Shown one piece after another: positions 988 through 36,797 of a stretch of DNA of 64,000 nt. This stretch comes from a virus. Every line of letters starts with the position of its first letter. Position 1 is the stretch's first letter. The notes under the pieces were generated by a model that saw nothing but the letters and a program-made list of their open reading frames with translations, ran no database searches and was not told the origin of the DNA. Position numbers and translations under genes: made by a program. The stretch spans positions 115,841 to 179,840 of the IMG/VR virus record IMGVR_UViG_3300041809_000571; one strand, 5' to 3'.

Positions 988-1275
988 TTAAAACTTAACC
1001 GGCCAATCCTGCATAATGGGGGTAGGAAATCTCCAACCGGTTAAGATGGGCTGAGCCTGTTTTTTCATTCCACATCCGCAGTCTTCACATATCGCCGGGC
1101 GCTTGCGGTTGTCCCGGCAGAGCCAAACCCACACACCGTTTTCATACAGCGCTTCATGCTCGCACTGATAGCAACCCCGGCAACGGGAGCACCGATACAC
1201 TTTCCATCCGCATTGCCAGCAGGTTACATCATGTACGGGGCAGTTCTCTCGGGGCATCAGGTCTCCAAAACACAC
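988..1275 (-). CDS. Cys-rich small protein (CxxC-rich), possibly the C-terminal fragment of a frameshifted Cys-rich gene
   Basis: 95-aa ORF with 16 Cys in CxxC/CxC arrays; its 5' end overlaps the upstream ORF in a different frame. Confidence 0.3.
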   Translation of the reverse strand: MCFGDLMPRENCPVHDVTCWQCGWKVYRCSRCRGCYQCEHEALYENGVWVWLCRDNRKRPAICEDCGCGMKKQAQPILTGWRFPTPIMQDWPVKF

Positions 1276-1798
1276 ACAGGTTGTCGGTCATGGGTTGATA
1301 AGACGAGCAGCACTCGGGGCGGTTTTCATAGATGGAACATCGGCCTTCGGGGGTAATCTTGGGGCAGTAGTACCAAAGCTTCACAATTTCTCCCTCTTTG
1401 GAGTGAAATTCTTCTTCTACCCCTCCCACCTTAAAGGGCATCCCGGCAGCGGTCAGCATCGCCTGCCCATCTTCAAACATGGAGTCTTTCCAGAAAGTCT
1501 CGGGGATGACCGGGTCTTTTTCATGGAAAGGCAGGCAAAACCTGCGACAGCAGGCTCCCGGCTCCGGGCAGATGGAGCATAACCAACTACTCTTTTCGAT
1601 TTTTGCGAGCGCTGCGGGCACGCTTGTTCTCCTCCCACAGCAAATTGAAGTACTCCCCGTGTTGGGGAATATGCTCACTCTTCTCCAACCCCAAAGCGTC
1701 CCACATCCGGTCAACGCACAGGCCGCAGATGACCGTGGCGCTCTCGCCAACGAGGAACCCATCCCGCTTGTCCTCTTTCGACTGAACAATCTTGACAT
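1229..1798 (-). CDS. Cys-rich protein; the N-terminal 70 aa are low-complexity, so the real coding part probably begins near 1588
   Basis: Protein-like Cys-rich sequence (CSICPEPGACCRRFC, YYCPKITPEGRC, ECCSSY) starts exactly where ORF 1587..1934 ends, suggesting a frameshift junction. Confidence 0.3.
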   Translation of the reverse strand: MSRLFSRKRTSGMGSSLARAPRSSAACALTGCGTLWGWRRVSIFPNTGSTSICCGRRTSVPAALAKIEKSSWLCSICPEPGACCRRFCLPFHEKDPVIPETFWKDSMFEDGQAMLTAAGMPFKVGGVEEEFHSKEGEIVKLWYYCPKITPEGRCSIYENRPECCSSYQPMTDNLCVFWRPDAPRELPRT

Positions 1799-1934
1799 CG
1801 CCGAAATGGCTGCGGCAATCGAGGGCGGCTCGTATCACGTCAAGCAGTTGACTTCGTGGTGCTGGCTTTTTTACCAGCTTTGGCTTTTTTATCGCTGCTT
1901 TCCTCATGCTCTGCCTCCCGCAATGAAATAGCAT
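1587..1934 (-). CDS. Hypothetical protein, possibly the N-terminal part of a frameshifted Cys-rich gene downstream of the radical SAM gene
   Basis: 115-aa ORF; overlaps the radical SAM 3' end by 95 nt and the next ORF by about 210 nt in another frame. Confidence 0.3.
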   Translation of the reverse strand: MLFHCGRQSMRKAAIKKPKLVKKPAPRSQLLDVIRAALDCRSHFGDVKIVQSKEDKRDGFLVGESATVICGLCVDRMWDALGLEKSEHIPQHGEYFNLLWEENKRARSARKNRKE

Positions 1935-2820
1935 TGGATTTCGCCGTGGAGATGCCTGTCAAGGCGTACTCCCGGCTGGTGGGGTCAAGGTTGTTTTCCT
2001 TGGCATACCCCTCCACTATGAAATACTCCTTGGAGAAGGTACCGTCCGTAAAATAGTTGAAGCTGTTGGCGTTGGTCTGGACCGTCCGCCAGATGAGCAC
2101 GGGCATCCCGTGTATCCGGTAAGCCGGGGCGTTCTCGTATTGACCGCAGATTTCATACTTACTTGCCAAACCGGCCACAACCTCCTCGAAGATGAGGGCA
2201 TCCTCTTCAAGCTCTTTCCACCGGTTCTCTGTGCAGATTTTGCGAAGCTGGATGTATCCAAGCTTAGGTTGCCCCGCCGCCCACTTGATGATGTCCTCAA
2301 TCTCGTGACGGTTGTAGCGGCCCACCACGATGGCGACCCGGATGCGGGGACACTCGGTCGCCGCCAGAATCTTCTCCCAGTCCAGCAGAGCGGTCATCCC
2401 CATGATTTTCTGATTGGTTGCCCGGTCAAGACTGTGGATGCTGTAGCTGACGCTGTCACAGGCATTAACCGTTTCCAGCTTGTCCAGAGCGAGGATACCA
2501 TTGGTCCTGATGCCTACCCGGCGCACCCATGGCTGGCGGCTAAGGAAAGGAATGAGCTTGTCCACGTGCTTATACGCCAGAGCGTCGGTGGTTTGCCCCG
2601 TGATGTAGATGCGGTCTATCCCGGCATGTTCCGCCTCGGCGAGAGCATGGGGAAAGGTCTTCCAGTTCTCGAAGGGGACGTTGAGTTGGTTATTGTGGAA
2701 GTATTCCTTAGCAAGGTCTCGCCCGAGGCAGAAGTAGCAATCAGCATTACAGGCCCCGAGGAGATTGATGTTCAGGAACGTGGGTTTGCTTCGTTGGCGG
2801 TTCTTGTATCGTAGGTCCAT
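1840..2820 (-). CDS. Radical SAM enzyme of unknown specificity
   Basis: CxxxCxxC cluster near the N-terminus (GACNADCYFC); a glycine-rich motif (IYITGQTTD) where GGEP would sit; size 326 aa; the GTATTATTC-N3-ATG motif lies immediately upstream on the minus strand. Confidence 0.75.
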   Translation of the reverse strand: MDLRYKNRQRSKPTFLNINLLGACNADCYFCLGRDLAKEYFHNNQLNVPFENWKTFPHALAEAEHAGIDRIYITGQTTDALAYKHVDKLIPFLSRQPWVRRVGIRTNGILALDKLETVNACDSVSYSIHSLDRATNQKIMGMTALLDWEKILAATECPRIRVAIVVGRYNRHEIEDIIKWAAGQPKLGYIQLRKICTENRWKELEEDALIFEEVVAGLASKYEICGQYENAPAYRIHGMPVLIWRTVQTNANSFNYFTDGTFSKEYFIVEGYAKENNLDPTSREYALTGISTAKSNAISLREAEHEESSDKKAKAGKKASTTKSTA

Positions 2821-2835
2821 GCAGAATAATACACA
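2821..2835 (-). promoter_or_regulatory. GTGTATTATTC-N3-ATG element upstream of the radical SAM gene
   Basis: Reverse complement of 2821-2835 reads TGTGTATTATTCTGC followed by ATG. Confidence 0.4.
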
Positions 2836-2849
2836 AAAATTGGAAAAAT

Positions 2850-2865
2850 CCCAGTATTATTCTTT
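2850..2865 (+). promoter_or_regulatory. CCCAGTATTATTC-N3-ATG element (late-promoter-like -10 / leaderless start signal)
   Basis: One of 4-5 copies at fixed 3-nt spacing from an ATG, with no SD. Confidence 0.45.
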
Positions 2866-3279
2866 ATGAAACTTACTCCCGTGATGGTTCACCGGTCGGA
2901 CTTCGACACCGACCAGATTATCCACGCCCGGTGGGACCGGCTATTTGAGTTCGAGTCATTGACATGGGATGCTGAATTCCTCGCCATGGGTTACCACCAC
3001 CCTCATGCACCCGGAGAAATGCCGGGGTTCGATGGTAACGTTGTTCTGGGACTTAGCACCATTTTCACCGATATTCCCAAGAAATTCCCCATCAAAGACC
3101 TTCTCACCTTTCTACAAGGACGAGCGCAGTCCTGCTGCATGGAAGAAGTGGAGCAACGCCTCACCCTGATGGCAAGACGCTGTTCCCAACTTGACTGTGC
3201 GGGGGATAGCCCAAATCCCACGGACGAAGAGAAGAGAGTGGCGGAATTAGCCGCTAAAAGGGTTGGATTTTACACATGA
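2866..3279 (+). CDS. Hypothetical protein
   Basis: 137-aa ORF directly preceded by the motif CCCAGTATTATTC plus 3 nt. Confidence 0.55.
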   Translation: MKLTPVMVHRSDFDTDQIIHARWDRLFEFESLTWDAEFLAMGYHHPHAPGEMPGFDGNVVLGLSTIFTDIPKKFPIKDLLTFLQGRAQSCCMEEVEQRLTLMARRCSQLDCAGDSPNPTDEEKRVAELAAKRVGFYT

Positions 3280-3509
3280 GAATGAGCAAAGCTGACAAGA
3301 AAGAACAAGCCGACCAGAAGAAGGTGTGGAAAGTCTACCCACAGGCTACCTATTGGGGAGTGGACGACAAGAAGAACTTCGGCCCCCTCGCTGCCTGCGA
3401 GGTATACCAGTCGGACGCCTTCGATGCCCCGGTAATCGGGGAAGGTAACACTTCCGGGGAAGCGTGGGCGGATGCCGTCAAGCGGCTTCCTAAAAAGGCA
3501 AAAAAGTGA
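3276..3509 (+). CDS. Hypothetical small Lys-rich protein
   Basis: 77-aa ORF; ATGA overlap with the upstream gene. Confidence 0.5.
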   Translation: MRMSKADKKEQADQKKVWKVYPQATYWGVDDKKNFGPLAACEVYQSDAFDAPVIGEGNTSGEAWADAVKRLPKKAKK

Positions 3510-3751
3510 AGTGGCTTTGTTGGTTATGGGACCTACGTGGGAAGATTACGGTGTAGCCTTCTTTGTTCGTTGCAAGTGGTGCGGCAAGAAGGTGTGTTCC
3601 CGCTAGACACGAAAGCCGGGCATCTCAGCCCGGCCCCCGTGTAGATATGGACCACCCCCTTTTAGGTGAGATTCGGCAACTTCAACCTCCCTTCCTCGGG
3701 TTTTCCTCGGGGTATGTCAGGTCTCATGGCGAGTCTCCTTTTTCTCTCGGA

Positions 3752-3774
3752 AGTGGTATTACTATGATTAAGGG
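3752..3774 (+). promoter_or_regulatory. Promoter box GTGGTATTACT followed by AAGGGG
   Basis: Variant motif copy upstream of 3784. Confidence 0.35.
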
Positions 3775-3783
3775 GTGAATAGT

Positions 3784-4086
3784 ATGGGTTTGGTGGAACG
3801 CTTGATATCGCTGACGAAAGCGGATAAGGTCAAGTGGAATGCTCGGTCAGTTCCGGGAGATTTCACTGTCGCCTTCACTTGGGTGGACGGATTTGAAATC
3901 TCCATCACCAACTTTTACAACAAGAGGGACCTCTCCGGGAAAGAAGTGGAACGTACCATGTGTATCACCAGTCCCCTCGGAATCTCAGTGGACATCAACG
4001 CCTGTCTGAAAGACATTCAAGAACTCGTCAGCCTCATCTGTGAAAAAACCATAACTGATTTCATCGGAAAACTGGCTGCTCTATGA
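3784..4086 (+). CDS. Hypothetical protein
   Basis: ORF 3775..4086; start placed at ATG 3784, 9 nt after AAGGGG; preceded by a TGGTATTACT promoter-like box. Confidence 0.5.
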   Translation: MGLVERLISLTKADKVKWNARSVPGDFTVAFTWVDGFEISITNFYNKRDLSGKEVERTMCITSPLGISVDINACLKDIQELVSLICEKTITDFIGKLAAL

Positions 4087-4769
4087 TAGACCACCTAAGT
4101 CTCACCGAAGCTACCGAACGTGCCTGCGGAGAGCCTACCCTGATAGATGCCCTCTCTTGGATTTGTATTTGGGAAACTGAGCGTGTTGTCAAACAGGCAC
4201 TAAAGGGATGCCGCTTAGGAGATGACGGTCAAATCTACGTCAAGCCGGGCATGGCAACACCGAAGGGCGGCGGCTGGGACACTTGTTTTACCATCTGTCT
4301 GGCAGCAGTCATGGAGGAGTGGGACAAGCGTCATCCCAAGAAGCGGTGGGGGCCGAATGCAACACAGGAAACACCAGAGGAGCGGCTTACCCGGCTGGAA
4401 GGCAAGGTACACGAATTGGAGAAGGTCCACCCGGATTTGAACGCTCTGGCGTCCAAGGTGGATAAGAGCAGTGCCGAAATGGGCCGTCTACGGGTCCTCG
4501 TTGGCGAGAAGCTGCCGGGGTTGGAAGACATCAGGGACCAGTGCCGCCACGCACACGCCGTGGGCAAGGAAGAAGTAGCGGGAGTCAGGCGGCTTGCTGA
4601 TGCCTGCGCTACGAGGTTGGAATTAAATCATGTAAGGGACAAGGTAACTTCCGTACTTAAAGAATTGGGATGGACCATCGCATGGGACGAGGATGGACAA
4701 CCAATCTGGAACGGAAGTAGAGAGAGGCATAATGGACCGGTCGATTCAAAAATTATTGGGTATAGCTGA
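4083..4769 (+). CDS. Hypothetical protein with coiled-coil segment
   Basis: 228-aa ORF; ATGA overlap with the upstream gene. Confidence 0.5.
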   Translation: MIDHLSLTEATERACGEPTLIDALSWICIWETERVVKQALKGCRLGDDGQIYVKPGMATPKGGGWDTCFTICLAAVMEEWDKRHPKKRWGPNATQETPEERLTRLEGKVHELEKVHPDLNALASKVDKSSAEMGRLRVLVGEKLPGLEDIRDQCRHAHAVGKEEVAGVRRLADACATRLELNHVRDKVTSVLKELGWTIAWDEDGQPIWNGSRERHNGPVDSKIIGYS

Positions 4770-6246
4770 TGATGCTAAACGCATCTATCGTTTCATCGAA
4801 GGTGATGTGCAGAAGGAAGAGTATCAGTATTGCCAGATGTTGGACCAACTGGTATTCGGCGACAAGGGCTACGTGGATACCCTCGGACAAACGTGGGAGA
4901 TGATTCACGACCCCCGCTTCCAGAAGATTGAAAACCTGTTCCTCACCGAGCGCAAGGCAGTCTTTGGCGGCAACGCCAGCATTGGACGCCAGTACATGAC
5001 AGCGGATGGCATCTTCGTATCCATCACCACAGCGGACTTGGAAGAGTACACGGAAATCCTCGGGGAGGGCCGGTACTTCCACACCATCATTGCCCACCCG
5101 AATGAGACTTGCCCCGTGCGTATCTGGAATTTCCGGCTCTACCCGGATATGATTGCCGCCAACAAGTGGGAAGTCCCCAAGCCCGGACCCGGCTTGAAAT
5201 GCACATGCAGCGGAGAGCAGGAGGGGCTGGTCATCAACGCCGACTCCCAATTGGTAGCATGGGTTAAAAACCCTCGGCAGCTTAAAGATGCCTCTGACGA
5301 TTTCTTGTGGGCGTTCATTAGACGGGAGTGTCCCAACTATTTCTCACAGGGAGGCAGTCCCAATCCATTGGCAAGGCGGTTATTCGACTTGTTCCGGGCA
5401 GACCTCTTGGGGCTTATCGCCGACTACACACCCACGCCATTAGTGGACGCCTTCATCGAACTCGAAACCGGGGACATAACCACCGGGGCTACAGAGGATG
5501 AAAAACCCAAGGTTTTCCTCGAAGCCGACATCTTGGAGAAGGCACTAACTTACCGGGCAACCATGCGAGCCACGGCGGCAAAGATTTTGAAGCAGGTGGG
5601 AATCGTGGCGCAACTGCGGTCACTACCTGACCCCCGGCTCACCGATTTTGAACGGGACCACATGCTCCGCATGGTCTATCAGTCCGACTGGCCTGACGAA
5701 AAGGTTCCCATGGTCATGAATTTGATGACCTACTTAAGCAGTGTGACGAGAAGGCCCTATGAGGACCGGCTAAAGGAACAGCTTGCCCGTGCCTCCGAGG
5801 ATGCGCTCGAAGACTGCCGGGACCTGCAATCCGGCAAGCTCGAACCCATCAACCAAGAAACCGAACCGGCTGTGGAAACTGACCTTGACCCCCACGCCGC
5901 CGTGCTGGAGTCCATCCTCCGCAATCCTCTCAAGGCAGAACTGTTTCTTATTTGGGTGGGAGCGGAAGAGCGGGGAGAGAATGGCAGGACCGAGGAGGAG
6001 AAACTCAACATGCGCCGGTTGAACTCCATCCTCACCCCTATGTTCACGGACCCGGCGTTTGAGTTGGACGAAAATAAGTACTGGGAATACATGGACCAAG
6101 CCAACCGGCTCGGCTACTATGGTAAACCCACTGTGCAGGTTGTCAAGGAGGCGGTCCTCGGCGGCGGCAAACCCGGTGACCCTTGTCTCCTTAAGGAAGT
6201 CTACGAGCAGAAAAAGAAAGATGAACCCACCGAGGAGGCGAAATGA
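4693..6246 (+). CDS. Hypothetical protein (517 aa)
   Basis: Long ORF; the alternative start ATG 4732 has an AGAGAGG RBS; no recognisable catalytic motif. Confidence 0.6.
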   Translation: MDNQSGTEVERGIMDRSIQKLLGIADDAKRIYRFIEGDVQKEEYQYCQMLDQLVFGDKGYVDTLGQTWEMIHDPRFQKIENLFLTERKAVFGGNASIGRQYMTADGIFVSITTADLEEYTEILGEGRYFHTIIAHPNETCPVRIWNFRLYPDMIAANKWEVPKPGPGLKCTCSGEQEGLVINADSQLVAWVKNPRQLKDASDDFLWAFIRRECPNYFSQGGSPNPLARRLFDLFRADLLGLIADYTPTPLVDAFIELETGDITTGATEDEKPKVFLEADILEKALTYRATMRATAAKILKQVGIVAQLRSLPDPRLTDFERDHMLRMVYQSDWPDEKVPMVMNLMTYLSSVTRRPYEDRLKEQLARASEDALEDCRDLQSGKLEPINQETEPAVETDLDPHAAVLESILRNPLKAELFLIWVGAEERGENGRTEEEKLNMRRLNSILTPMFTDPAFELDENKYWEYMDQANRLGYYGKPTVQVVKEAVLGGGKPGDPCLLKEVYEQKKKDEPTEEAK

Positions 6247-6578
6247 GGGAAGTCGGAATACGAGTAGGGGCAATTTGCAGCGGTGATGAAAAGACCAAAA
6301 TCCTGAAATTCTTCGGGTACGGCGTGTACGAGGGAGACTTCATTCCCCCAGCCAATGCCGGGGGTTTTGCTCAAATGTGCCACGAGGCCGAAGTCACCAA
6401 CCCCCGCATCAAGCTGGACAACGGCAACACCGTGTGGGGCGGCGAATGTTGGTGGGGACCGGAAGACCAAATCAAGAAAAGGGTCGATGCCTGCATTGCC
6501 GCTGGCTGGAAAATTGAGGATGTCGGCATTAAGAAGCTACGGACCGCCGAGAAGAAAGCAAAGAAAGCGAGGAAGTAA
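6243..6578 (+). CDS. Hypothetical protein
   Basis: 111-aa ORF; ATGA overlap with the upstream gene. Confidence 0.5.
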   Translation: MREVGIRVGAICSGDEKTKILKFFGYGVYEGDFIPPANAGGFAQMCHEAEVTNPRIKLDNGNTVWGGECWWGPEDQIKKRVDACIAAGWKIEDVGIKKLRTAEKKAKKARK

Positions 6579-6943
6579 TGGCAATCGTTCAGTACGAGCA
6601 TCATGGAGTAAAGGTTTTTGTGGAGGACCGGCTCAAGGGAACGCACCGGGGCAACTGTCTGTGCTTCAAGTGTGCCTCCTTCAAGCCGGGGACACCGGAG
6701 AACTGCCCGTTGGCGCAGGAGCTTTATGAGTACTGTGTCAAACATGGCATGACCACGCCGGTCTATGAATGCCCGGTGTTCGTGGAAATCAAGCTGGAAG
6801 TAAAGAAGGTGGAAAAATTCCCGGATTGTCAGTATTGTCAAATGGGTGCAGAACACACCCACAGCAAGACCACCAAGTCACCAGCGGTTGCAACTCAGCC
6901 GCTCATCAATGTGACGGCCAGCGCTTACAAAGAGCAGAGCTAG
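6578..6943 (+). CDS. Cys-rich hypothetical protein (probable Zn-binding)
   Basis: CLCFKCASF, CPLAQELYEYC, CPVF, CQYCQ motifs. Confidence 0.5.
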   Translation: MAIVQYEHHGVKVFVEDRLKGTHRGNCLCFKCASFKPGTPENCPLAQELYEYCVKHGMTTPVYECPVFVEIKLEVKKVEKFPDCQYCQMGAEHTHSKTTKSPAVATQPLINVTASAYKEQS

Positions 6944-6952
6944 GAGACCACC

Positions 6953-7210
6953 ATGGCAATTGTAGCCGCTCCCGAGGGAGCAGTAGTTCATGACGACGGA
7001 AAGGTATATCGGCGTAAGCCGTGGCGGTCGGGGACGTTTGCCCTGATACTGATTGGCAACATGGTCAACGAGGCAGGGCCGGATGGAAAGCCCACCGGTC
7101 AGAAGAGCTTTGTGTCTTTGGTTCACAAGGAGTCCACCAACCCGTTGAAGGTTTCCCGGAAGACCAAGGTTGCCACGCCGGGTGAGGCCCTTGCCAAGGC
7201 AGTCAAATAA
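6953..7210 (+). CDS. Hypothetical protein
   Basis: 85-aa ORF. Confidence 0.45.
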   Translation: MAIVAAPEGAVVHDDGKVYRRKPWRSGTFALILIGNMVNEAGPDGKPTGQKSFVSLVHKESTNPLKVSRKTKVATPGEALAKAVK

Positions 7211-7442
7211 GCTTGCGGCGAAAGAGCCGACGTACAGGTTGGACGACTAGCCTGAGTGCGGTAATCAGCATCTCCGTGGGAATGCTACGGCCACGAAAAG
7301 TCGTCTAGGTAACGCACCGGAGCCTCCCTGTTGTGGGAGGGGGCGGTGAAGCGGGGAGCAGGAGTGCCGGGTAGTGACCGGAGTAGCGATAACCCTGCTG
7401 CCTGCGGGGGTCTGTGGCTCAACCCCGCCGCATGGAGGAAAT

Positions 7443-7712
7443 ATGCTAACCAAACCAGAATGCCGTGTATTGTCTATGCTGCTGGACATGGCTGCTGATA
7501 AATTCTCCAATCATTGCTGCAATGACCTCCCGGATGAAATCACCGATGCTTTGAGCGACGAGGAGAAACTCACCCTGATAAAGGAGTACGCCGCTTGGAG
7601 CGCCGACCCGGATGAGTTCGATGGTGAACCCACCGCCAAGCGCTTCGACCATCTTGCAGACTGGATTCTCATGCGTTTCTTCTCCGAGAAGTTAAACAAG
7701 ATGGCTCAATAG
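7443..7712 (+). CDS. Hypothetical acidic protein
   Basis: Start moved to ATG 7443, after GGAGG at 7434; the upstream 230 nt are non-coding and structured. Confidence 0.45.
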   Translation: MLTKPECRVLSMLLDMAADKFSNHCCNDLPDEITDALSDEEKLTLIKEYAAWSADPDEFDGEPTAKRFDHLADWILMRFFSEKLNKMAQ

Positions 7713-7715
7713 CTT

Positions 7716-8063
7716 ATGATGCGAGGATATCACACGGTATACAAAGCTTTCCGGGTCAGGAGTGGGAAACTGTGTTTCCTGTTTCGAGGACACAAGGGGA
7801 GCCTTGAGGTTCCCATTGGGGAATGGCTTACCGCAAAGATGCGCCTCGTGCGTGATGGTAAGGGACGGCGCTACCGGGCCGGGTTCCACTTCATGTGGGA
7901 TAAAGAAGCTGTAGCGAAGTTCAACAAACGCACCAAAAACAAATACATCATCCTGAAAGTGGACGTGCGAGAGCGTCTCCGCCCCAAACCCAACAGTCCT
8001 AATGATGTCTGGCTGGCACAGCAAATGCGTGTACTCTTCTGCCACATCATCGGCTGCAAATAG
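7716..8063 (+). CDS. Hypothetical basic protein
   Basis: 115-aa ORF. Confidence 0.45.
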   Translation: MMRGYHTVYKAFRVRSGKLCFLFRGHKGSLEVPIGEWLTAKMRLVRDGKGRRYRAGFHFMWDKEAVAKFNKRTKNKYIILKVDVRERLRPKPNSPNDVWLAQQMRVLFCHIIGCK

Positions 8064-8128
8064 CACTAAAGTAGACTACGACATAGCACCGTCGTACCCC
8101 CCTCAATGGGCAAAAAACCCCAGCAAAC

Positions 8129-8140
8129 TGTGTATTATTA
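8129..8140 (+). promoter_or_regulatory. TGTGTATTATTA -10-like box about 30 nt upstream of the sugar transferase start
   Basis: Same core as the GTATTATT family, but followed by a leader with a GGAGG SD. Confidence 0.35.
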
Positions 8141-8169
8141 CCTATCAGAAAATCTGTACGGGAGGAACA

Positions 8170-8787
8170 ATGAGTGCTTGGAACGAGCGAGTTAAGCGGG
8201 CTTTTGACCTATGCGGCAGTTTGGCCGGTTTGATTATAACCGCTCCAATCCTTGCTGTGGTTGCGGTGCTTATCAAGCTGACCTCACGGGGACCTGTCCT
8301 CTACCGACAGGTGCGAGTGGGAAAGATGGGTCATCTGTTCACCCTCTTCAAATTCAGAACGATGAATACCGACAATAATCCGGCAGTCCACAAGAAATAC
8401 GTTCAGAGCCTTATTTGCGGGAAGGCTCCTGCCGCAGACGGTGTTTATAAGATAGTTAATGACCCCCGCATCACCCGGATAGGGAGTTTCCTGAGAAAGA
8501 CCAGTCTGGACGAGCTTCCCCAACTGTTCAATGTCCTTATGGGGGATATGTCACTCGTAGGCCCCCGGCCCCCGATTCCCTACGAAGTGGAAGTATACCA
8601 GCCGTGGCACCACACCCGGCTGTTTGTCAAACCCGGCATAACCGGTCTGTGGCAGGTGAGTGGGCGGAACCGGACGAGCTTTAGTGAGATGGTGATGCTG
8701 GATATCCACTACACGGCATCCTTCTCAATTTGGAATGACCTTAAGATACTGGTTAAGACCCCGTTAGTCATGGTGACGGGGAGATAA
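8170..8787 (+). CDS. Polyprenyl-phosphate sugar phosphotransferase (bacterial sugar transferase family, PglC/WbaP C-terminal type)
   Basis: Hallmark motif [21 protein letters not shown]; single N-terminal hydrophobic helix ([20 protein letters not shown]); start at ATG 8170 after GGAGG; TGTGTATTATTA box at 8129. Confidence 0.8.
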
Positions 8788-8824
8788 GTTCAGCGGCAGA
8801 ATAGCGAGCCGCTTTGGAGGGAAA

Positions 8825-9418
8825 ATGAAAAACGTGAAGTTGTTGCTTTCCTTGCTGACGATGTTCCTGTTCCTGTGCATTCCCCTGCGAGCGGACACCA
8901 TTGGAACGGTGTACTTCAACGGGGATTATGCGTTCGCCAACAACGGCTATGGGATTCCCCCATACGGTGGAACTCTGGACGGCATTGCGGAAGACTTCTA
9001 CTGTGTGGACTTCGCCCACGACATCAGCGCCGGGGAAAGCTGGAAGGCATACATCGCTCCGGTCAGCGGTACTACCTTGGAAGAGGAGGCTTGGTTGGCA
9101 ACCCAAATGCTAGGGACCACCAGCCAAACTCAGCAAGCAGAGTACCAATGGGCAATCTGGAGCTTATCGGGGGGAACCGACCCTTACGGTCAGTCCAATG
9201 CCAATGCTCTTATCGCCGAGGCTCAGTCCGCTATTAACGGTGGATACACGGGGGCCGGATGGGAAGTCCTCACCCCGGTGAACTGGGGAACCCAACCGGG
9301 ACAGCAATTTGTTGTCCAAACTCCCGAGGGACCTGCTGTTGAGCTTCTTTTATTTGGTCTACTGGGTGTCGGCTGGCTGGTTTGGAAGAAAAAGCTGAAT
9401 ATTCCTGTCCGGTCATAA
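8825..9418 (+). CDS. Secreted protein with PEP-CTERM-like C-terminal sorting signal
   Basis: N-terminal signal peptide (MKNVKLLLSLLTMFLFLCIPLRA); C-terminus TPEGPAVELLLFGLLGVGWLVWKKKLN has a PEP-like motif, then a hydrophobic helix, then a basic cluster. Confidence 0.6.
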   Translation: MKNVKLLLSLLTMFLFLCIPLRADTIGTVYFNGDYAFANNGYGIPPYGGTLDGIAEDFYCVDFAHDISAGESWKAYIAPVSGTTLEEEAWLATQMLGTTSQTQQAEYQWAIWSLSGGTDPYGQSNANALIAEAQSAINGGYTGAGWEVLTPVNWGTQPGQQFVVQTPEGPAVELLLFGLLGVGWLVWKKKLNIPVRS

Positions 9419-9443
9419 TCCGGCCATTAAAAAACGTCGATTT

Positions 9444-9476
9444 CCTCCCATTCCGTGGTATACTGAGAGTGGGAGG
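9444..9476 (+). promoter_or_regulatory. Extended -10 promoter box (GTGGTATACT) embedded in an anti-SD/SD hairpin (CCTCCCA ... TGGGAGG)
   Basis: One of five copies of the TGGTATACT/N7/GGAGG arrangement; inverted repeat flanks the box. Confidence 0.5.
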
Positions 9477-9487
9477 AAACATCGACT

Positions 9488-18700: not shown

Positions 18701-19684
18701 ATGTGCTTTGATGAGCCGCTCCTAACTCGTGATGAGTTCCGGGAATCAGTGTTTGCCCGTGATGGGTACAAGTGTGTCGTGTGCGGGTCAAGGGAGAATG
18801 GCCTTGACGCCCACCATATCATCGACCGCAAACTCTTCTACAATGGAGGCTACTACCTCAGCAACGGTGTATCCCTGTGCTCTGATTGTCACATCAAAGC
18901 GGAAGACCCCAATGCCATCCGAGAATTCCTACCCTTCGCTCTCCGGGAGCGGGCGGGCATCAAGGAAATCATCCTACCAGACAAGCTGGACGCCAAGTGC
19001 GGAAACAACTACGACAAGTGGGGCAACTACATTTCCACCCTCATGGTGAAGTATCCCCACACGCCCCACGTGCTATGGTCGCCGGGGTACGACGCACAGG
19101 AAGATATGGTGCTGACCACCACTGACCACTGGGCGGGCAAGGAGGTAGTCATCACCGAAAAGATGGACGGTGAGGGCACCACCATGTATCAGGACAACTA
19201 CCATGCCCGGTCCTGCACGTATAAGCCGCATGTCAGCCGCAGCCGGGCGAGAGCAATATGGGGCCGCATCCGGTATGATATCCCCTTCGGCTGGCGCATT
19301 TGCGGGGAGAACGTCGCCGCCGAGCACAGCATCTCCTATGACAACCTGCCGGGGTACTTCATGGTATTCTCCATCTGGCAGGAGTTTGACGTGTGCCTTT
19401 CTTGGGACCAGACAGAAATTTGGTGCGGTCTTTTAGAGTTGCCCACCGTTCCAGTATTATGGAGAGGGACGTGGGACGAAGCCAAGTGCCGGGACATCAT
19501 CGACCACCTTGACTTGAAAAAGCAGGAAGGCATCGTCATCCGCCCGGCAGATGAATTCCGGCTGGACCAGATAGCCGACCCGGTCAACGGAGTCATGGGA
19601 AAGTGGGTCCGCAGGGGCCACGTTACCACCGACGAGCACTGGATGGATAAGCCAGTAGTTTGGAACAAACTAAAGGGGGAATAA
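18701..19684 (+). CDS. HNH nuclease fused to ATP-dependent RNA/DNA-ligase-like nucleotidyltransferase domain
   Basis: N-terminal HNH (CVVCGS ... DAHHIIDR ... NGVSLCSDCH); C-terminal ligase motifs I (EKMDGEG), IV (EGIVIRP) and V (GKWVRRGH). Confidence 0.6.
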   Translation: MCFDEPLLTRDEFRESVFARDGYKCVVCGSRENGLDAHHIIDRKLFYNGGYYLSNGVSLCSDCHIKAEDPNAIREFLPFALRERAGIKEIILPDKLDAKCGNNYDKWGNYISTLMVKYPHTPHVLWSPGYDAQEDMVLTTTDHWAGKEVVITEKMDGEGTTMYQDNYHARSCTYKPHVSRSRARAIWGRIRYDIPFGWRICGENVAAEHSISYDNLPGYFMVFSIWQEFDVCLSWDQTEIWCGLLELPTVPVLWRGTWDEAKCRDIIDHLDLKKQEGIVIRPADEFRLDQIADPVNGVMGKWVRRGHVTTDEHWMDKPVVWNKLKGE

Positions 19685-30019: not shown

Positions 30020-31039
30020 GTGCCAAGAATGCCTAAAAAGCAGTGCAAACGGCTTGACCCTAACATCAAGAGCGAGGCTGAGGAAGAACTTGCCAGCAGC
30101 CTAAAGCATCTTATCGTCGGACAGACACGGGCAATTGAGGTACTCGTAGACGCATACGAAACCTTCCGTGCTGGTTTAGCCCCGCCTGACCATCCTGTCG
30201 GAAATCTAATATTCCTCGGTCCCACCGGTTGCGGGAAGACCTACGTCATTGAAGTAATGGCGGAGCTTCTCTTCGGTACAAAAAAAGCCCTCAAAAAGGT
30301 GGACTGCGCCGAGTTCCAACATTCTCACGACATTGCCAAACTGGTGGGTTCCCCACCCGGATACTTGGGACATCGGGATACACCAGCCTACTTACGTCAG
30401 GAAAGTCTGGATGCCCACCATACCAAGGAATTGGCATTGACACTTTTACTCTTTGATGAGTTTGAGAAGTCTAACGATGCCCTGTGGAACTTGTTACTTG
30501 GAATACTTGACAAAGGTACACTTACCTTGGGTGACAACAAGCAAAGCACCTTCGATAAATGCCTCATCATCATGACGGGAAATCTCGGTTCCCGAGAAAT
30601 GCAATATCTCGCCCGAGGTGGACTGGGATTCGCCGGGTCTTCCACAAAGAGCAGTGAGGCATTCAACAAAGAGGTGGAAACGGCAGGACTAGAAGCCGCC
30701 AAAAAACGCTTCACCCCGGAGTTCCTCAACCGCATAGATGAGATAGTGGTGTTTCACTCCTTGGATGAGAAGCAACTCAAACAGGTGGTGGAATTGGAAA
30801 TCGAACAGGTGCAGAGCCGGGTGTTAAAGATGCGAGACCCCCGGCAGTTCGTCTTGGAATTCACCCCCGCCGCCAAAGACTTGCTGATAGCCCAAGGAAC
30901 GGACTTAAAGAACGGGGCACGTCCTCTCAAACGGATAATGGAGAAGCTGGTAGTAAAGCGGCTTTCCCGTTTTCTTAACACCAAACAAGTCAACATGGGG
31001 GGACCTCATCGTAGTGGACAAAGACAACGAAGACCTTAG
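30020..31039 (+). CDS. ClpA/ClpB D2-type AAA+ ATPase (stand-alone)
   Basis: LIVGQTRAIEVLVDAYETFRAGLAPPDHPVGNLIFLGPTGCGKTYV matches the ClpB D2 sensor and Walker A region; Walker B LLLFDEFEKS; C-terminal VVFHSLDEKQLKQVVELEI; GTG 30020 or ATG 30029 start. Confidence 0.7.
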   Translation: MPRMPKKQCKRLDPNIKSEAEEELASSLKHLIVGQTRAIEVLVDAYETFRAGLAPPDHPVGNLIFLGPTGCGKTYVIEVMAELLFGTKKALKKVDCAEFQHSHDIAKLVGSPPGYLGHRDTPAYLRQESLDAHHTKELALTLLLFDEFEKSNDALWNLLLGILDKGTLTLGDNKQSTFDKCLIIMTGNLGSREMQYLARGGLGFAGSSTKSSEAFNKEVETAGLEAAKKRFTPEFLNRIDEIVVFHSLDEKQLKQVVELEIEQVQSRVLKMRDPRQFVLEFTPAAKDLLIAQGTDLKNGARPLKRIMEKLVVKRLSRFLNTKQVNMGGPHRSGQRQRRP

Positions 31040-33850: not shown

Positions 33851-34216
33851 ATGAGCGGAGAATTGATTGAGGACGGAGTCCCCGTCCCTCAGAAGGAATC
33901 GAAGTACGCTGTGTTGGGAAAGCTGAGAGTCGGGCAGAGCGCCGTCATCGCCGTACCCCGGTCTTCCAGTCTGAGCAAGACCATTGCCGTTCTGCAAACG
34001 AAAACAGGGAAGCGTTTCAAGCGTCTCAAGGTGGAGGGCGGCGTCCGGGTGTGGCGCATCGACCCCGAGGAAGCGAAGCCGAGGAAAGGCAAGAAGTCAG
34101 CCACTCCTATTCCGGTTGCGCCCCCGTCCATCGACCCGGTAGCATCAACCCCAATGCCAGCGCCTCCCACCGAGGATGGCGAGGCATCCCTGCACGCCGT
34201 GGATGCTGAGGCATAA
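33851..34216 (+). CDS. Hypothetical basic protein
   Basis: Start at ATG 33851 after GGAGG. Confidence 0.45.
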   Translation: MSGELIEDGVPVPQKESKYAVLGKLRVGQSAVIAVPRSSSLSKTIAVLQTKTGKRFKRLKVEGGVRVWRIDPEEAKPRKGKKSATPIPVAPPSIDPVASTPMPAPPTEDGEASLHAVDAEA

Positions 34217-34230
34217 AATAACCCATATTT

Positions 34231-34263
34231 CCCTCCACTTTGTGGTATACTGAGAGTGGAGGG
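34231..34263 (+). promoter_or_regulatory. Extended -10 promoter box (GTGGTATACT) in an anti-SD/SD hairpin (CCCTCCA ... TGGAGGG)
   Basis: Same architecture as 9444-9476, with compensatory base changes in the stem. Confidence 0.5.
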
Positions 34264-34266
34264 AAC

Positions 34267-34731
34267 ATGGCAAAGAGCGATTTCGTCACTCGCAAGACCA
34301 TCTGTCCCAACGAGCATTGCGGTAACACCAGATACGAGCGGACTTACGCTCGCAACGATAGTGGCACATTAGTGCCGGTGTGGAAGTGTATCAACTGCTT
34401 ACGGGAATACCCTCGAACGGGGCGCAACCGGCGCACCAACCATATGCGAGCAGTGGACATGTGGCGGAAGCTTCGTGACGAATGGAAGCCGGTAGACGAG
34501 AAGCTCATGGCTCTGGCGGAAGCCAAGGTCATCAAGAACGGAGCGATTCTGGTTTACGGCTCCGCCTACAACTACCACATGGACCGGTTGCTCATGGAAG
34601 AGCGCATGTCGAACTTCAACGTCCGCTACTGCGGTGAGCAGGCTCGCCGCCAACTGGCGGAAGCGGTGAAGTTCATCGCTGAGGAGGAATCCAAGTGTCA
34701 ATCACCCATGTCGTTATCACCAACGCCGTAG
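34267..34731 (+). CDS. Zn-finger protein
   Basis: CPNEHCG ... CINC; TGGTATACT box plus GGAGGG upstream. Confidence 0.5.
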   Translation: MAKSDFVTRKTICPNEHCGNTRYERTYARNDSGTLVPVWKCINCLREYPRTGRNRRTNHMRAVDMWRKLRDEWKPVDEKLMALAEAKVIKNGAILVYGSAYNYHMDRLLMEERMSNFNVRYCGEQARRQLAEAVKFIAEEESKCQSPMSLSPTP

Positions 34732-35398: not shown

Positions 35399-35427
35399 CC
35401 TCGGCGTGGTATACTGTAATTGAGGGG
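35399..35427 (+). promoter_or_regulatory. Extended -10 promoter box (GTGGTATACT) followed by GAGGGG; CCTC upstream
   Basis: Motif copy upstream of the CCA-adding enzyme gene. Confidence 0.45.
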
Positions 35428-35432
35428 GATAC

Positions 35433-36797
35433 ATGACTCCGAAGGAAGCGGCTGTCGAAGTTCTCAAGACCCTGTACAAGAATAATTACCGCTCTTACCT
35501 CGTGGGTGGATGCGTGCGAGACCTTATCCTTGGGCGTGAGCCAAAGGATTATGACATCACCACCGAGGCCCTCCCCGAGCAGGTAGAAGCCGTTTTCCCC
35601 AAGACTGTTGCCGTGGGCAAGTCCTTTGGTGTCATCACCGTGGTTATGGGTGACGTGAACATCGAAGTGGCAACCTTCCGTTCAGATGGCGCTTACAGCG
35701 ACAACCGCCGACCTGACTCCGTGACCTTCACTCCTTCCGCTGCCGACGACGTAAAGCGCCGGGACTTCACCATGAACGGCTTGCTCTGCGTGGGTGAAGC
35801 CGACACTTCCAGCGTAGCCAACTACGAGACTTCGCTTGCCGGGTCGAATGTCCATTACACCGTGCAGGAAGGCGAGTCCCCGGACGGCGAATCTCACACC
35901 TATGGAATAATGGATTTCGTCGGCGGCATGGACGATATCAAGGAGCGGAAGATTCGTTGTATCGGCGACCCCAACGAACGCTTCAAGGAAGATGCCCTGC
36001 GGATGCTGCGGGCCTGCCGGTTCGCCGCTCAGTTACGATTTCACATTGATGATGACACCCTCTTGGCTATTCAGGAGAATGCCGCTCTTATCACCAAGGT
36101 TTCGGTGGAGCGTATCGCCGTGGAACTCGTCAAGATTCTGACCAGTCCCCACCCGGTCAACGGGTTGGTGCCCTTGGTCACCACCGGTCTTATGGAGCAC
36201 CTGCCTTTTAGTGAGGCAATCAAGAAGGGTCTTGCTTACATCCTGCGCCGGTTTGGTAAGTTCCAGACTAAGGATGCTAATTTGGCACTGGCAATGTTCT
36301 TCGCCCACACTGACCCTACCATGGTTCGGGTGGATTACCTATTGAAGAAGGTTCTCAAGCTGTCCAATGACCACGTTAACGCCGCAGCCGGGGCGCTGGA
36401 CACCCTTTACGACATGCTCTTCGCCGGTCTTTTCAATCTCAAGCACGCTCAGCACCGGCTCAAGAAGATGATGCGGAATCCGGGTGCTATGCTCGGCGTT
36501 GAACTGTTGGAGCAGAACCTTGCGTTGAACTTTCCACCCTTCCCTGATGGAGACGTGAAGGATTTCCACAGTCTCATCGAATACCTGCGGGCATTGACCC
36601 CGGAAGAAATCAACCCTCCCAAGTTTGTGACTGGCGAGGATTTGATGGCGATGGGAATGGAGCCTTGCCGGGAAATGGGCAATATCCTTGACGATGTTGA
36701 GGATATGCAGCTTAATGGGGAACTGCGGGACCGGACTCATGCCCTCCTCGTGGCGGAGCGTTATGTCTCCGACTTCAAGAACGGAGTCCTGCGATGA
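35433..36797 (+). CDS. tRNA nucleotidyltransferase (CCA-adding enzyme / polyA polymerase head-domain family)
   Basis: LVGGCVRDLILGREPKDYDITT ... GKSFGVITVV ... EVATFRSD is the class II head-domain signature; TGGTATACT box upstream. Confidence 0.8.
   Translation: MTPKEAAVEVLKTLYKNNYRSYLVGGCVRDLILGREPKDYDITTEALPEQVEAVFPKTVAVGKSFGVITVVMGDVNIEVATFRSDGAYSDNRRPDSVTFTPSAADDVKRRDFTMNGLLCVGEADTSSVANYETSLAGSNVHYTVQEGESPDGESHTYGIMDFVGGMDDIKERKIRCIGDPNERFKEDALRMLRACRFAAQLRFHIDDDTLLAIQENAALITKVSVERIAVELVKILTSPHPVNGLVPLVTTGLMEHLPFSEAIKKGLAYILRRFGKFQTKDANLALAMFFAHTDPTMVRVDYLLKKVLKLSNDHVNAAAGALDTLYDMLFAGLFNLKHAQHRLKKMMRNPGAMLGVELLEQNLALNFPPFPDGDVKDFHSLIEYLRALTPEEINPPKFVTGEDLMAMGMEPCREMGNILDDVEDMQLNGELRDRTHALLVAERYVSDFKNGVLR

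What the first reader, a model, noticed from the sequence alone, without database searches (positions are those of the whole stretch)
8129..9418. Phage-encoded PglC-like phosphoglycosyl transferase adjacent to a PEP-CTERM-like secreted protein
The sugar transferase carries the textbook [21 protein letters not shown] motif. The next gene encodes a signal-peptide protein ending in TPEGPAVELLLFGLLGVGWLVWKKKLN, which fits the PEP-CTERM/exosortase sorting signal architecture. PEP-CTERM proteins and EpsB/WbaP-family sugar transferases are the two hallmarks of exosortase/EPS systems, and seeing both as a phage moron is unexpected. This suggests host surface-glycan remodelling or superinfection exclusion, or glycosylation of the phage's own Thr-rich collagen-like fibres. 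It also narrows the host to an exosortase-bearing Gram-negative.
Basis: partly seen in the sequence, partly recalled or inferred. Interest (0 to 1): 0.7.

Follow-up and report, generated by a model that had tools for sequence, protein, structure and literature searches.

The report
Phage sugar transferase plus thioester adhesin
A giant soil phage that probably infects Acidobacteria carries two genes taken from its host's cell-surface toolkit: a stripped-down enzyme that starts surface-sugar chains, and a small secreted protein that looks like a covalent "thioester" adhesin, a kind so far described only in Gram-positive bacteria, whose host sorting tag is mutated in the phage copy.

The parts
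8160..8165 (+). Shine-Dalgarno (GGGAGG) of the transferase gene
   Evidence: Read directly from the sequence, 4 nt before ATG 8170.
8170..8787 (+). Gene for a minimal monotopic phosphoglycosyl transferase (205 aa)
   Evidence: Pfam Bac_transf E 1.1e-65 covering the whole model. TIGR03025 EPS_sugtrans scores 292.9 bits, just under its 295.55 cutoff. The best solved relative is the WbaP catalytic domain at 2.6e-49, against PglC at 1.6e-32. An identical 205-aa protein is called on a 364-kb contig. dN/dS is 0.10 against relative L059.
8209..8286 (+). The only hydrophobic segment of the transferase (aa 14-39, with Pro26): predicted re-entrant membrane helix
   Evidence: Hydropathy windows above 1.8 occur only at aa 14-39. 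Pro26 is invariant among 12 relatives. The re-entrant topology is inferred from the known PglC/WbaP fold.
8509..8514 (+). Codons for the Asp114-Glu115 catalytic dyad, within DELPQ
   Evidence: D114 and E115 are invariant in alignment A2 and align with WbaP's DELPQ.
8825..9418 (+). Gene for a secreted 197-aa protein: signal peptide, thioester domain and a decayed PEP-CTERM tail
   Evidence: ORF with a GGAGGG Shine-Dalgarno at 8815-8820. More than 120 homologues, 40-55% identical apart from three phage-lineage copies (86-99%). dN/dS is 0.165 overall against relative L058.
8825..8893 (+). Sec-type signal peptide (aa 1-23, MKNVK + hydrophobic core + LRA|D)
   Evidence: Hydrophobic stretch at aa 3-23. 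Ala23 is nearly invariant and the next residue is a consensus Asp in alignment A1. The cleavage site is inferred.
8894..9322 (+). Thioester domain (aa 24-166), about 143 aa
9002..9004 (+). Cys60 codon (motif YCVD): predicted thioester-forming cysteine and the only Cys in the mature protein
   Evidence: C60 is conserved in 26/26, 68/68 and 51/51 sequences of the three alignments. It matches the [YFL]C-hydrophobic-hydrophilic motif of TEDs.
9146..9160 (+). Q108-W-A-I-W112: the TQxx(hydrophobic)W motif, in the second of the three core helices
   Evidence: W112 is conserved 51/51 and Q108 43/51 in the distant set. It lies in the second of the three helices of the model. Motif definition.
9302..9304 (+). 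Gln160 codon (GQQFVV): predicted thioester-forming glutamine
   Evidence: Q160 is conserved 26/26, 68/68 and 51/51. It fits the weak (hydrophobic)Q(hydrophilic)(hydrophobic)(hydrophobic) motif, next to a beta strand as in known TEDs.
9323..9415 (+). C-terminal tail (aa 167-197): P-E-G in place of PEP, hydrophobic helix aa 171-187, K188-K190, then LNIPVRS
   Evidence: No TIGR02595 or PF07589 match, while 23 and 22 of the 26 A1 members match. PEG occurs only in the phage-lineage copies among 120 homologues. The tail HMM gives 15.5-18.6 bits, against a bacterial median of 48.6 and minimum of 23.4. Tail dN/dS is 0.69.

Best explanation
This is a two-gene cassette of host origin inside a roughly 364-kb jumbo phage whose host is most likely a Terriglobia-class acidobacterium.

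Gene 1 encodes only the catalytic core of an EPS-type initiating phosphoglycosyl transferase. It keeps one membrane-embedded helix and the DE-dyad domain, and it lacks the 130-150-aa N-terminal extension found in its acidobacterial relatives. In the infected cell it would sit on the inner face of the cytoplasmic membrane and load a sugar-1-phosphate onto undecaprenyl phosphate. That feeds, or competes with, the host's Wza/Wzc-type exopolysaccharide pathway.

Gene 2 encodes a Sec-exported protein of about 143 mature-domain residues with the fold and all three signature motifs of a thioester domain. Cys60 and Gln160 would form an internal thioester. That bond can react with an amine on a target to give a permanent isopeptide link. 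In the bacteria this small family ends in a canonical PEP-CTERM tag for exosortase. In the phage lineage the tag has changed (PEP to PEG, RR to KKK, faster evolution). The protein is therefore probably handled differently: most simply it stays anchored in the inner membrane by its C-terminal helix, or it is a poor exosortase substrate.

Together, though not as an obligate pair, the two genes would remodel the envelope or matrix of the infected cell. The likely benefit is excluding other phages or keeping infected cells stuck in the aggregate.

Supported by sequence analysis only: gene identities, conserved catalytic and motif residues, phage context, host lineage, purifying selection, tag decay. 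Inferred: thioester formation, localisation, sugar identity, target and selective benefit.
For: Transferase identity. Its closest bacterial relatives (57-62% identical) lie in clusters with Poly_export, GNVR/Wzz and a ParA-type kinase; the richer of the two also has DegT, a hexapeptide transferase and a GT2. The N-terminal extension is absent from the phage copy.

Tag decay.

Phage context: an identical transferase lies at about 135 kb on a 364,142-bp contig between phage genes and rIIA/rIIB. The same gene order is seen in three other assemblies. It also holds in diverged relative L058, where the TED gene is followed by rIIA. GC3 is within the range of the phage genes compared, though similar to the bacterial homologues too.

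Functionality: dN/dS is 0.10 for the transferase and 0.10 for the TED domain.

Host lineage: 47 of 48 genome hits are Acidobacteriota. Named transferase relatives come mostly from Terriglobia.

Independence of the two genes.
Against: Foldseek gives no significant PDB hit. The full-length model finds nothing. The trimmed model has a TED as its top hit, but at E 0.2 and TM 0.50. The query itself has no Pfam TED hit, most family hits fall below the 22-bit cutoff, and TIGR03934 (TQXA) hits 1 of 26 at 0.045. Family profiles do not reach TED chains in the PDB by sequence; A1 finds nothing and A4 finds only spurious Ig light-chain and haemagglutinin matches. I could not measure the Cys60-Gln160 distance because model coordinates are not exposed. 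The Cys-to-Gln spacing of 100 residues is shorter than in solved TEDs (129-153). No other glycosyltransferase or flippase was found among the window ORFs scanned, so the transferase may make a dead-end product. Only 64 kb of the 364 kb was examined. Whether a PEG tail is still cleaved by exosortase is unknown, and I found no mutational data on the motif.
Confidence: 0.6

Rival explanations
1. The pair is a working piece of an exosortase/EPS system. The second protein is a true PEP-CTERM substrate that host exosortase cleaves and places on the surface, and it is glycosylated through a lipid-linked glycan started by the neighbouring transferase.
For: The protein clearly descends from a PEP-CTERM family, and 23 of 23 bacterial relatives pass TIGR02595. 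The tail keeps P-E, a Gly-rich hydrophobic helix and a basic cluster. PEGP and KKK are conserved between phage relatives that are 86% identical. PF02397 transferases are found near exosortase genes (Haft 2006).
Against: The phage tail fails both PEP-CTERM models and scores below all 115 bacterial tails. Replacement of the third motif residue is seen in only one other of 120 homologues. The transferase scores far below the XrtA-linked EpsB model, 163.6 against 393. The two genes are never neighbours in 48 bacterial loci, and a related phage fragment lacks the second gene.
Confidence: 0.2
2. The transferase is a host-shutdown weapon. An orphan initiating enzyme with no partner enzymes locks undecaprenyl phosphate into dead-end Und-PP-sugar. 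That starves EPS, LPS and peptidoglycan synthesis and eases lysis or virion escape. The neighbouring protein is functionally unrelated.
For: No other glycan gene was found among the window ORFs scanned. The transferase is conserved in a relative without the TED gene. It lacks the N-terminal extension of its bacterial relatives, which may be regulatory. Und-P sequestration by blocked pathways is an established effect (review PMC12826051, listed but not read in full).
Against: The enzyme is closest to the host's own EPS initiators. Its product is therefore likely to be accepted by host enzymes rather than stranded. Only 64 of 364 kb was examined for partner genes.
Confidence: 0.15
3. The second protein has a TED-like shape but forms no thioester. 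It is simply a small membrane-anchored periplasmic protein next to rIIA/rIIB, acting non-covalently, for example in superinfection exclusion or lysis timing.
For: It lies directly upstream of rIIA/rIIB. The query has no direct Pfam TED hit and Foldseek is not significant. The phage copy has lost a 13-26-residue loop present in all bacterial homologues.
Against: Cys60 is the lone Cys in the mature secreted protein. Cys60 and Gln160 are invariant over family members only 22-46% identical, and they are the only two residues universally conserved in TEDs. The domain is under strong purifying selection in the phage.
Confidence: 0.15
4. Assembly artefact or host fragment: the two genes are bacterial DNA wrongly joined to phage sequence.
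For: Both genes have their nearest non-phage relatives in Acidobacteriota.
Against: The same gene order appears in four independent assemblies, one of them placing the genes at about 135 kb in a 364-kb contig. Diverged relatives keep the order TED-rIIA, and keep the transferase in syntenic phage context. The best bacterial identities are only about 55% and 63%. GC3 is within the range of the phage genes compared, though similar to the bacterial homologues too.
Confidence: 0.02

Closest known systems
Thioester domains (TEDs) of Gram-positive TIE adhesins (Cpa/Spy0125, SfbI, FbaB, CpTIE, BaTIE; Pfam PF08341)
   Different: It is about 143 aa, against roughly 175-260 aa. It has no isopeptide or ester stalk domains. 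The Cys-Gln spacing is 100 residues. The family is diderm (Acidobacteriota) and carries PEP-CTERM instead of LPXTG, whereas TEDs were reported 'exclusively in Gram-positive bacteria'. This copy is encoded by a phage. Sequence similarity is sub-threshold for the query.
PEP-CTERM/exosortase sorting signal (TIGR02595, PF07589; Haft 2006)
   Same: A tripartite C-terminal tail (signature, hydrophobic helix, basic cluster) plus an N-terminal signal peptide. It is homologous by descent to tails that pass the models.
   Different: The signature is PEG, not the near-invariant PEP. The basic cluster is KKK instead of Arg-rich, and there is a Glu in the helix. There is no model hit even at E<=10. It is the lowest-scoring tail in the family, and its dN/dS is 0.69.
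Small monotopic phosphoglycosyl transferases (PglC type) and the WbaP/EPS_sugtrans catalytic domain
   Same: It is 205 aa with one N-terminal membrane helix containing a conserved Pro. The motifs KFRTM, DPR and DELPQ...MSLVGPRP are present and the DE dyad is intact.
   Different: By sequence it is nearer WbaP (2.6e-49) than PglC (1.6e-32). Most of its nearest relatives are 320-360-aa acidobacterial EPS-cluster enzymes with an extra N-terminal region that the phage copy lacks. The sugar substrate is unknown.
Phage surface-conversion genes (GtrABC, O-acetylases) and the rare phage-borne Bac_transf genes (e.g. Microcystis phage MaAM05, Aphanizomenon phage Yong-DA)
   Same: A phage-carried glycan enzyme that probably alters the infected cell's surface. 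Bac_transf genes do occur in a few phages.
   Different: Classical conversion uses GtrB-type Und-P-glucose synthases, not an initiating phosphoglycosyl transferase; this point rests on general knowledge. Only 41 of 50,697 phage records match, none above 47% identity. IMG/VR gives 43 loci, none of them a close relative (best 54%). None of those genes has been studied functionally, as far as I could find.
TIE(pLS20) adhesin of conjugative plasmid pLS20
   Same: A mobile genetic element carrying a TED protein that acts at the cell surface of its carrier cell.
   Different: That protein is 778 aa, class II, with Cna stalk domains, in a Gram-positive host, and it promotes mating-pair formation. Here a phage carries a minimal TED with a membrane tail.

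Membership tests
Monotopic phosphoglycosyl transferase superfamily (Pfam Bac_transf PF02397) | A full-length match to the Bac_transf model above the gathering score | tested here: met
   221 bits against a cutoff of 27, covering model positions 1-178 of 179.
Monotopic phosphoglycosyl transferase superfamily (Pfam Bac_transf PF02397) | An Asp-Glu catalytic dyad and a single N-terminal membrane helix with a helix-breaking Pro | tested here: met
   D114, E115 and P26 are invariant in A2. The only hydrophobic segment is aa 14-39. The re-entrant topology itself was not tested.
PglC-type small PGT (diNAcBac-1-P transferase) | About 200 aa with no extra domains | tested here: met
   205 aa, containing only the Bac_transf domain.
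PglC-type small PGT (diNAcBac-1-P transferase) | Closest sequence kinship to PglC, and use of UDP-diNAcBac | tested here: not met
   WbaP catalytic domain scores 170.7 bits (2.6e-49), PglC 115.9 bits (1.6e-32). Substrate use cannot be tested here.
TIGR03013 EpsB_2 (XrtA/PEP-CTERM system glycosyltransferase) | A score above the curated cutoff | tested here: not met
   163.6 bits against a cutoff of 393.35.
TIGR03025 EPS_sugtrans | A score above the curated cutoff | tested here: inconclusive
   292.9 bits against 295.55. Only the C-terminal 193 of 445 model positions can match, because the N-terminal part is absent.
PEP-CTERM sorting domain (TIGR02595 / PF07589) | The near-invariant Pro-Glu-Pro tripeptide | tested here: not met
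   The tripeptide is P167-E168-G169. PEP occurs in 105 of 120 homologues and 50 of 51 distant representatives. PEG occurs only in the phage-lineage copies.
PEP-CTERM sorting domain (TIGR02595 / PF07589) | A hydrophobic helix followed by a basic cluster at the C-terminus, plus an N-terminal signal peptide | tested here: met
   Hydrophobic helix aa 171-187, K188-K190, and an N-terminal hydrophobic stretch at aa 3-23. Feature definition from Haft 2006.
PEP-CTERM sorting domain (TIGR02595 / PF07589) | Recognition by the family HMMs | tested here: not met
   No hit at E<=10. 23 of 26 (TIGR02595) and 22 of 26 (PF07589) alignment members hit, and none of the three phage-lineage copies does. The family tail HMM gives 15.5-18.6 bits, against a bacterial minimum of 23.4.
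PEP-CTERM sorting domain (TIGR02595 / PF07589) | Cleavage or sorting by an exosortase in the host | not testable with these tools
   The host is uncultured and no exosortase gene was looked for. The presence of one is inferred from the canonical tags of the bacterial homologues.
Thioester domain (TED, PF08341; Walden 2015, Miller 2018) | The bond-forming Cys in a [YFL]C(hydrophobic)(hydrophilic) motif, in a beta context | tested here: met
   Y59-C60-V61-D62 lies at the end of a strand. C60 is invariant in every alignment. Definition.
Thioester domain (TED, PF08341; Walden 2015, Miller 2018) | The bond-forming Gln in a weak (hydrophobic)Q(hydrophilic)(hydrophobic)(hydrophobic) motif, in a beta context | tested here: met
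   G159-Q160-Q-F-V-V; the bacterial form is GQEFLV. Q160 is invariant (26/26, 68/68, 51/51) and sits next to the last strands. The first position is Gly rather than hydrophobic.
Thioester domain (TED, PF08341; Walden 2015, Miller 2018) | The TQxx(hydrophobic)W motif on the central helix | tested here: met
   Y107-Q108-W-A-I-W112 lies in the second of the three helices, with Tyr in place of the motif's Thr. W112 is conserved 51/51 and Q108 43/51.
Thioester domain (TED, PF08341; Walden 2015, Miller 2018) | The TED fold | tested here: met
Thioester domain (TED, PF08341; Walden 2015, Miller 2018) | A Pfam or NCBIfam model hit above threshold | tested here: not met
   The query has no hit. Relatives reach 16.8-19.3 bits against a cutoff of 22. 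The best of the 26 has E 3.6e-5; its bit score was not printed. TIGR03934 hits 1 of 26 at E 0.045.
Thioester domain (TED, PF08341; Walden 2015, Miller 2018) | An actual Cys-Gln thioester (-17 Da, reactive to amines) | not testable with these tools
   This needs mass spectrometry.

The most novel reading that the evidence does not exclude
A jumbo phage deploys a covalent thioester "warhead" in the envelope of its acidobacterial host. This would be the first phage-encoded TED and part of a large, unrecognised TED family in diderm bacteria. The family has about 1,100 cluster representatives at E<=1e-10, nearly all carrying PEP-CTERM anchors. In this reading the phage deliberately broke the PEP signature so that the protein escapes exosortase, or jams it, and stays at the inner membrane. 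There it covalently captures an envelope component or an incoming rival phage's protein. Meanwhile the unregulated EPS-initiating transferase rewires matrix production.
Probability: 0.25. Interest if true: 0.8.

Novelty: new variant of a known kind. Interest (0 to 1): 0.62.

Why it matters
Thioester domains are the chemistry behind covalent host adhesion by streptococci and other Gram-positive pathogens. They were reported as exclusive to Gram-positives. This locus points to a large family of minimal TEDs, about 143 aa, in soil Acidobacteria that are anchored by PEP-CTERM instead of LPXTG. It also shows that a phage has captured one and altered its sorting tag. If the thioester forms, three things follow. 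Covalent adhesion would extend to diderm soil bacteria and to viruses. The domain would be the smallest natural TED scaffold available for protein-ligation tools. The natural PEP-to-PEG variant would be a ready-made probe of what exosortase recognises, which has hardly been tested by mutation.

The transferase adds one of the few phage-borne initiating phosphoglycosyl transferases with clear evidence of selection. It suggests that phages manipulate exopolysaccharide production in Acidobacteria, a dominant soil phylum with very few known viruses. The two genes also give a concrete host assignment for an uncultured 364-kb phage.

Tried and rejected
1. My first guess was a Cys60-Gln108 thioester. 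Reading Miller 2018 and Walden 2015 corrected this. Q108 belongs to the non-essential TQxx(hydrophobic)W helix motif, and the bond-forming Gln is the invariant Q160.

3. Foldseek against the PDB gave nothing significant with the full-length model. The trimmed model gave only a suggestive top hit. The afdb50 library was unavailable.

4. I looked for the same genes in known phages. There is no DNA relative in INPHARED apart from one 131-bp match, no TED homologue in INPHARED or IMG/VR, and only distant Bac_transf genes in either.

5. I looked for a conserved partner of the TED gene in 48 bacterial loci. There is none: no transferase, and no neighbour family present in more than 13 loci.

6. I looked for other glycan genes, or a second PEP-like tail, in the window. 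There are none.

7. The promoter and terminator scan around the cassette gave no more than chance.

8. There are no tRNAs in the window.

9. Literature searches for TED together with PEP-CTERM gave zero papers. A search for phage phosphoglycosyl transferases turned up no functional study.

10. Glycosylation of virion fibres: rejected on topology, by inference only.
Full report
**1. What is there**

The + strand between 8.0 and 9.5 kb carries two closely spaced ORFs, and rIIA and rIIB homologues follow them (PHROG hits 4.9e-113 and 2.2e-58).

- The first ORF is open from 8002, but the upstream gene ends at 8063. The start that makes sense is ATG 8170, four bases after GGGAGG. This gives 205 aa, which is the protein that independent gene callers report on public contigs.
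- The second ORF (8825-9418, 197 aa) also has a strong Shine-Dalgarno sequence.
- The quoted [21 protein letters not shown] and TPEGPAVELLLFGLLGVGWLVWKKKLN strings are both present. The protein continues for five more residues, IPVRS.

**2. It is phage DNA, not a host fragment**

The window has collagen-like tail fibres, an HNH-RNA ligase, a tRNA nucleotidyltransferase and a block of giant "polyvalent" ADP-ribosyltransferase proteins.

- A transferase identical in sequence lies at about 135 kb on a 364,142-bp ENA contig, with the same neighbours on both sides.
- Three further independent assemblies (ENA, Logan, JGI) show the same order: transferase, 197-aa gene, then rIIA and rIIB where the contig is long enough.
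- A relative about 85% identical keeps the 197-aa gene followed by rIIA.
- A more distant fragment, L057, is syntenic with window 1055-8787 and has the transferase at 69-73% amino-acid identity. There a different gene (DUF7448) follows it.
- GC and GC3 of the two genes fall within the range of the phage genes compared.
- Against the diverged relative, dN/dS is 0.10 for the transferase and 0.165 for the second gene (0.10 for its domain). Both genes are therefore maintained by selection in the phage lineage.
- INPHARED has no relative of this phage, and IMG/VR has none of either gene.

**3. The transferase**

- Pfam Bac_transf matches end to end (1.1e-65).
- The protein has one hydrophobic segment (aa 14-39, with invariant Pro26). 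It has the KFRTM and DPR motifs and the D114-E115 dyad. It is a complete minimal monotopic phosphoglycosyl transferase, and PglC-like in size.
- By sequence it is nearer the WbaP catalytic domain (2.6e-49) than PglC (1.6e-32).
- It lands 2.7 bits under the EPS_sugtrans cutoff, because it lacks that family's N-terminal half. It is far below the XrtA-linked EpsB model, 163.6 against 393.
- Apart from the phage-lineage copies, its nearest relatives with a source name (57-63% identical) are mostly from Acidobacteriota/Terriglobia. Most are 320-360 aa, with a 130-150-residue N-terminal extension that the phage copy lacks.
- The two I inspected sit in Wza/Wzc-type exopolysaccharide clusters, with Poly_export, GNVR/Wzz and a ParA-type kinase. 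The richer one also carries DegT, a hexapeptide acetyltransferase and a GT2.
- I found no other glycan gene among the window ORFs scanned.
- Bac_transf genes are rare in phages: 41 of 50,697 INPHARED records, none above 47% identity, and 43 loci in IMG/VR.

**4. The second protein: its tail**

It has more than 120 homologues, 40-55% identical apart from three phage-lineage copies (86-99%), and almost all are 195-250 aa. A genome scan gave 48 loci. Of these, 47 are in Acidobacteriota (Acidiferrales/Acidoferrum/Terriglobia MAGs) and one is in Binatus.

- The bacterial copies end in a textbook TPEPSSLLLLGxGLxGL...RR.
- TIGR02595 hits 23 of the 26 aligned sequences, which is every bacterial one. 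It hits none of the three phage-lineage sequences. PF07589 behaves the same way, 22 of 26.
- Among 120 homologues, PEP occurs in 105, and [SA]EP in about ten. PEG occurs only in the phage-lineage copies. Among 51 distant representatives, 50 have PEP.
- I built a tail HMM from the bacterial copies and cross-validated it five-fold. Held-out bacterial tails scored 23.4-62.8 bits (median 48.6, n=115). The phage tails scored 15.5-18.6 and 8.7-13.6 bits.
- The tail evolves faster than the rest of the protein (dN/dS 0.69 against 0.10; the counts are small). PEGP and KKK are kept in both phage relatives.

Even so, the tail is plainly a derivative of a PEP-CTERM tag rather than an unrelated anchor.

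**5. The second protein: its body**

The mature part has one cysteine, which is invariant.

- An AlphaFold model of aa 24-166 built on 68 sequences is confident (pLDDT 93.2, pTM 0.88). It shows a beta region, three helices, then a beta region.
- Pfam TED matches 14 of the 26 close family members at E<=1 (best 3.6e-5), but not the query.
- The literature defines TEDs by three motifs: [YFL]C(hydrophobic)(hydrophilic) with the bond-forming Cys; a weak (hydrophobic)Q(hydrophilic)(hydrophobic)(hydrophobic) with the bond-forming Gln, both in beta context; and a helical TQxx(hydrophobic)W. Only the Cys and the Gln are universally conserved. The topology is three core helices between beta regions.
- The phage protein has Y-C60-V-D at a strand end, Y-Q108-W-A-I-W112 in the second of the three helices, and G-Q160-Q-F-V-V by the last strands.
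- Across 51 representatives only 22-46% identical to the query, C60, Q160 and W112 are each conserved 51/51.
- Caveats. Foldseek is not significant: the best hit is a TED at E 0.2 and TM 0.50. Sequence profiles do not reach PDB TEDs. I could not measure the Cys-Gln distance.
- The domain is smaller than any solved TED. The phage copy has also lost a 13-26-residue loop present in all bacterial homologues.
- An exhaustive profile search finds 1,138 cluster representatives at E<=1e-10. The family is therefore large. Where sources name its members, the names refer only to the PEP-CTERM tag.
- TEDs were reported as exclusively Gram-positive. No paper in the searchable library mentions TED together with PEP-CTERM.

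**6. Are the two genes a system?**

In 48 bacterial loci the TED gene stands alone. There is no transferase within 6 kb, and no neighbour family occurs in more than 13 loci. In phage fragment L057 the transferase is present without the TED gene. The adjacency is therefore specific to this phage lineage, and the two genes need not depend on each other. Both nevertheless come from the host's surface/matrix toolkit.

**7. Most likely mechanism**

The phage makes an unregulated catalytic core of the host's EPS-initiating enzyme. It also exports a thioester-bearing adhesin whose exosortase tag has been altered. Together they change the surface or matrix of the infected cell. I put about 0.85-0.9 on the two identities and about 0.4 on this functional reading.

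The rivals are:

- Und-P sequestration by an orphan transferase;
- a TED-shaped protein that forms no thioester;
- an assembly artefact, which is effectively excluded.

**8. Novelty and score**

The transferase is a new member of a known kind in an unusual carrier. The TED with a PEP-CTERM-derived tail is a new variant of a known kind: a diderm lineage, minimal size, a different anchor and phage capture with tag decay. None of it is demonstrated biochemically. Interest is 0.62.

Noticed in passing
window 9436-9486 and 34202-34270 (weaker copies near 35406 on + and 47770 on -): A recurring hairpin sits just upstream of genes. Its left arm (TTTCCTCCCA) pairs with the Shine-Dalgarno sequence of the downstream gene (TGGGAGGAAA). 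Its loop holds an exact shared 15-mer, GTGGTATACTGAGAG, with a -10-like TATACT. The second copy has compensating changes in both arms (TTTCCCTCCA / TGGAGGGAA). The RNA fold is -30.4 kcal/mol, z = -4.15. The 69-nt spacer is 65/69 identical in relative L058, although dS of the adjacent gene is 0.5. It looks like a phage promoter combined with a hairpin that sequesters the ribosome-binding site, and it marks rIIA as a separate unit from the cassette.
   Followed up: partly
window 39410-63753, - strand: A run of giant ORFs (1566, 549, 3027, 1436 and 1007 aa). They carry ART-PolyVal ADP-ribosyltransferase, GNAT acetyltransferase, cREC_REC and GP88 domains. A GIY-YIG/NUMOD3 homing endonuclease (44107-44973) and an endonuclease VII gene (60028-60699) interrupt the run. 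These are polyvalent proteins of the kind typically injected into the host.
   Followed up: no
L103 5871-6941 and L104 10001-11044 (bacterial relatives of the transferase); alignment A2 columns 1-150: Acidobacterial EPS-cluster transferases carry a conserved N-terminal extension of about 130-150 aa (motif ...RETD[IV]IGWYK...). It has no Pfam match, and the phage enzyme lacks it entirely. It may be a regulatory domain that the phage has discarded.
   Followed up: no
window 18701-19684 (+): A single ORF fuses an N-terminal HNH endonuclease region (aa 10-70) to an RNA ligase domain (aa 115-325). A tRNA nucleotidyltransferase lies nearby at 35433-36797, although the window contains no tRNA genes.
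   Followed up: no
window 9059-9070, the stretch coding APVSG|TTLEEE in the TED gene: The phage-lineage TEDs lack a 13-26-residue loop (for example ADYSSTYLKSQNTY) that every bacterial homologue has between the last N-terminal strand and helix 1. It might alter access to the thioester or its target specificity.
   Followed up: no
profile of alignment A4, positions 38-102: The family profile matches bovine antibody light-chain constant domains at E 0.001-0.06, through a ...TLVCLISDF...W...Y... pattern. I judged this a chance or convergent beta-strand pattern, not homology.
   Followed up: partly
window 1840-2820 (-) and 30020-31039 (+): A radical SAM enzyme and a ClpB/Cdc48-type AAA ATPase are encoded by the phage. 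Neither has an obvious link to the cassette.
   Followed up: no
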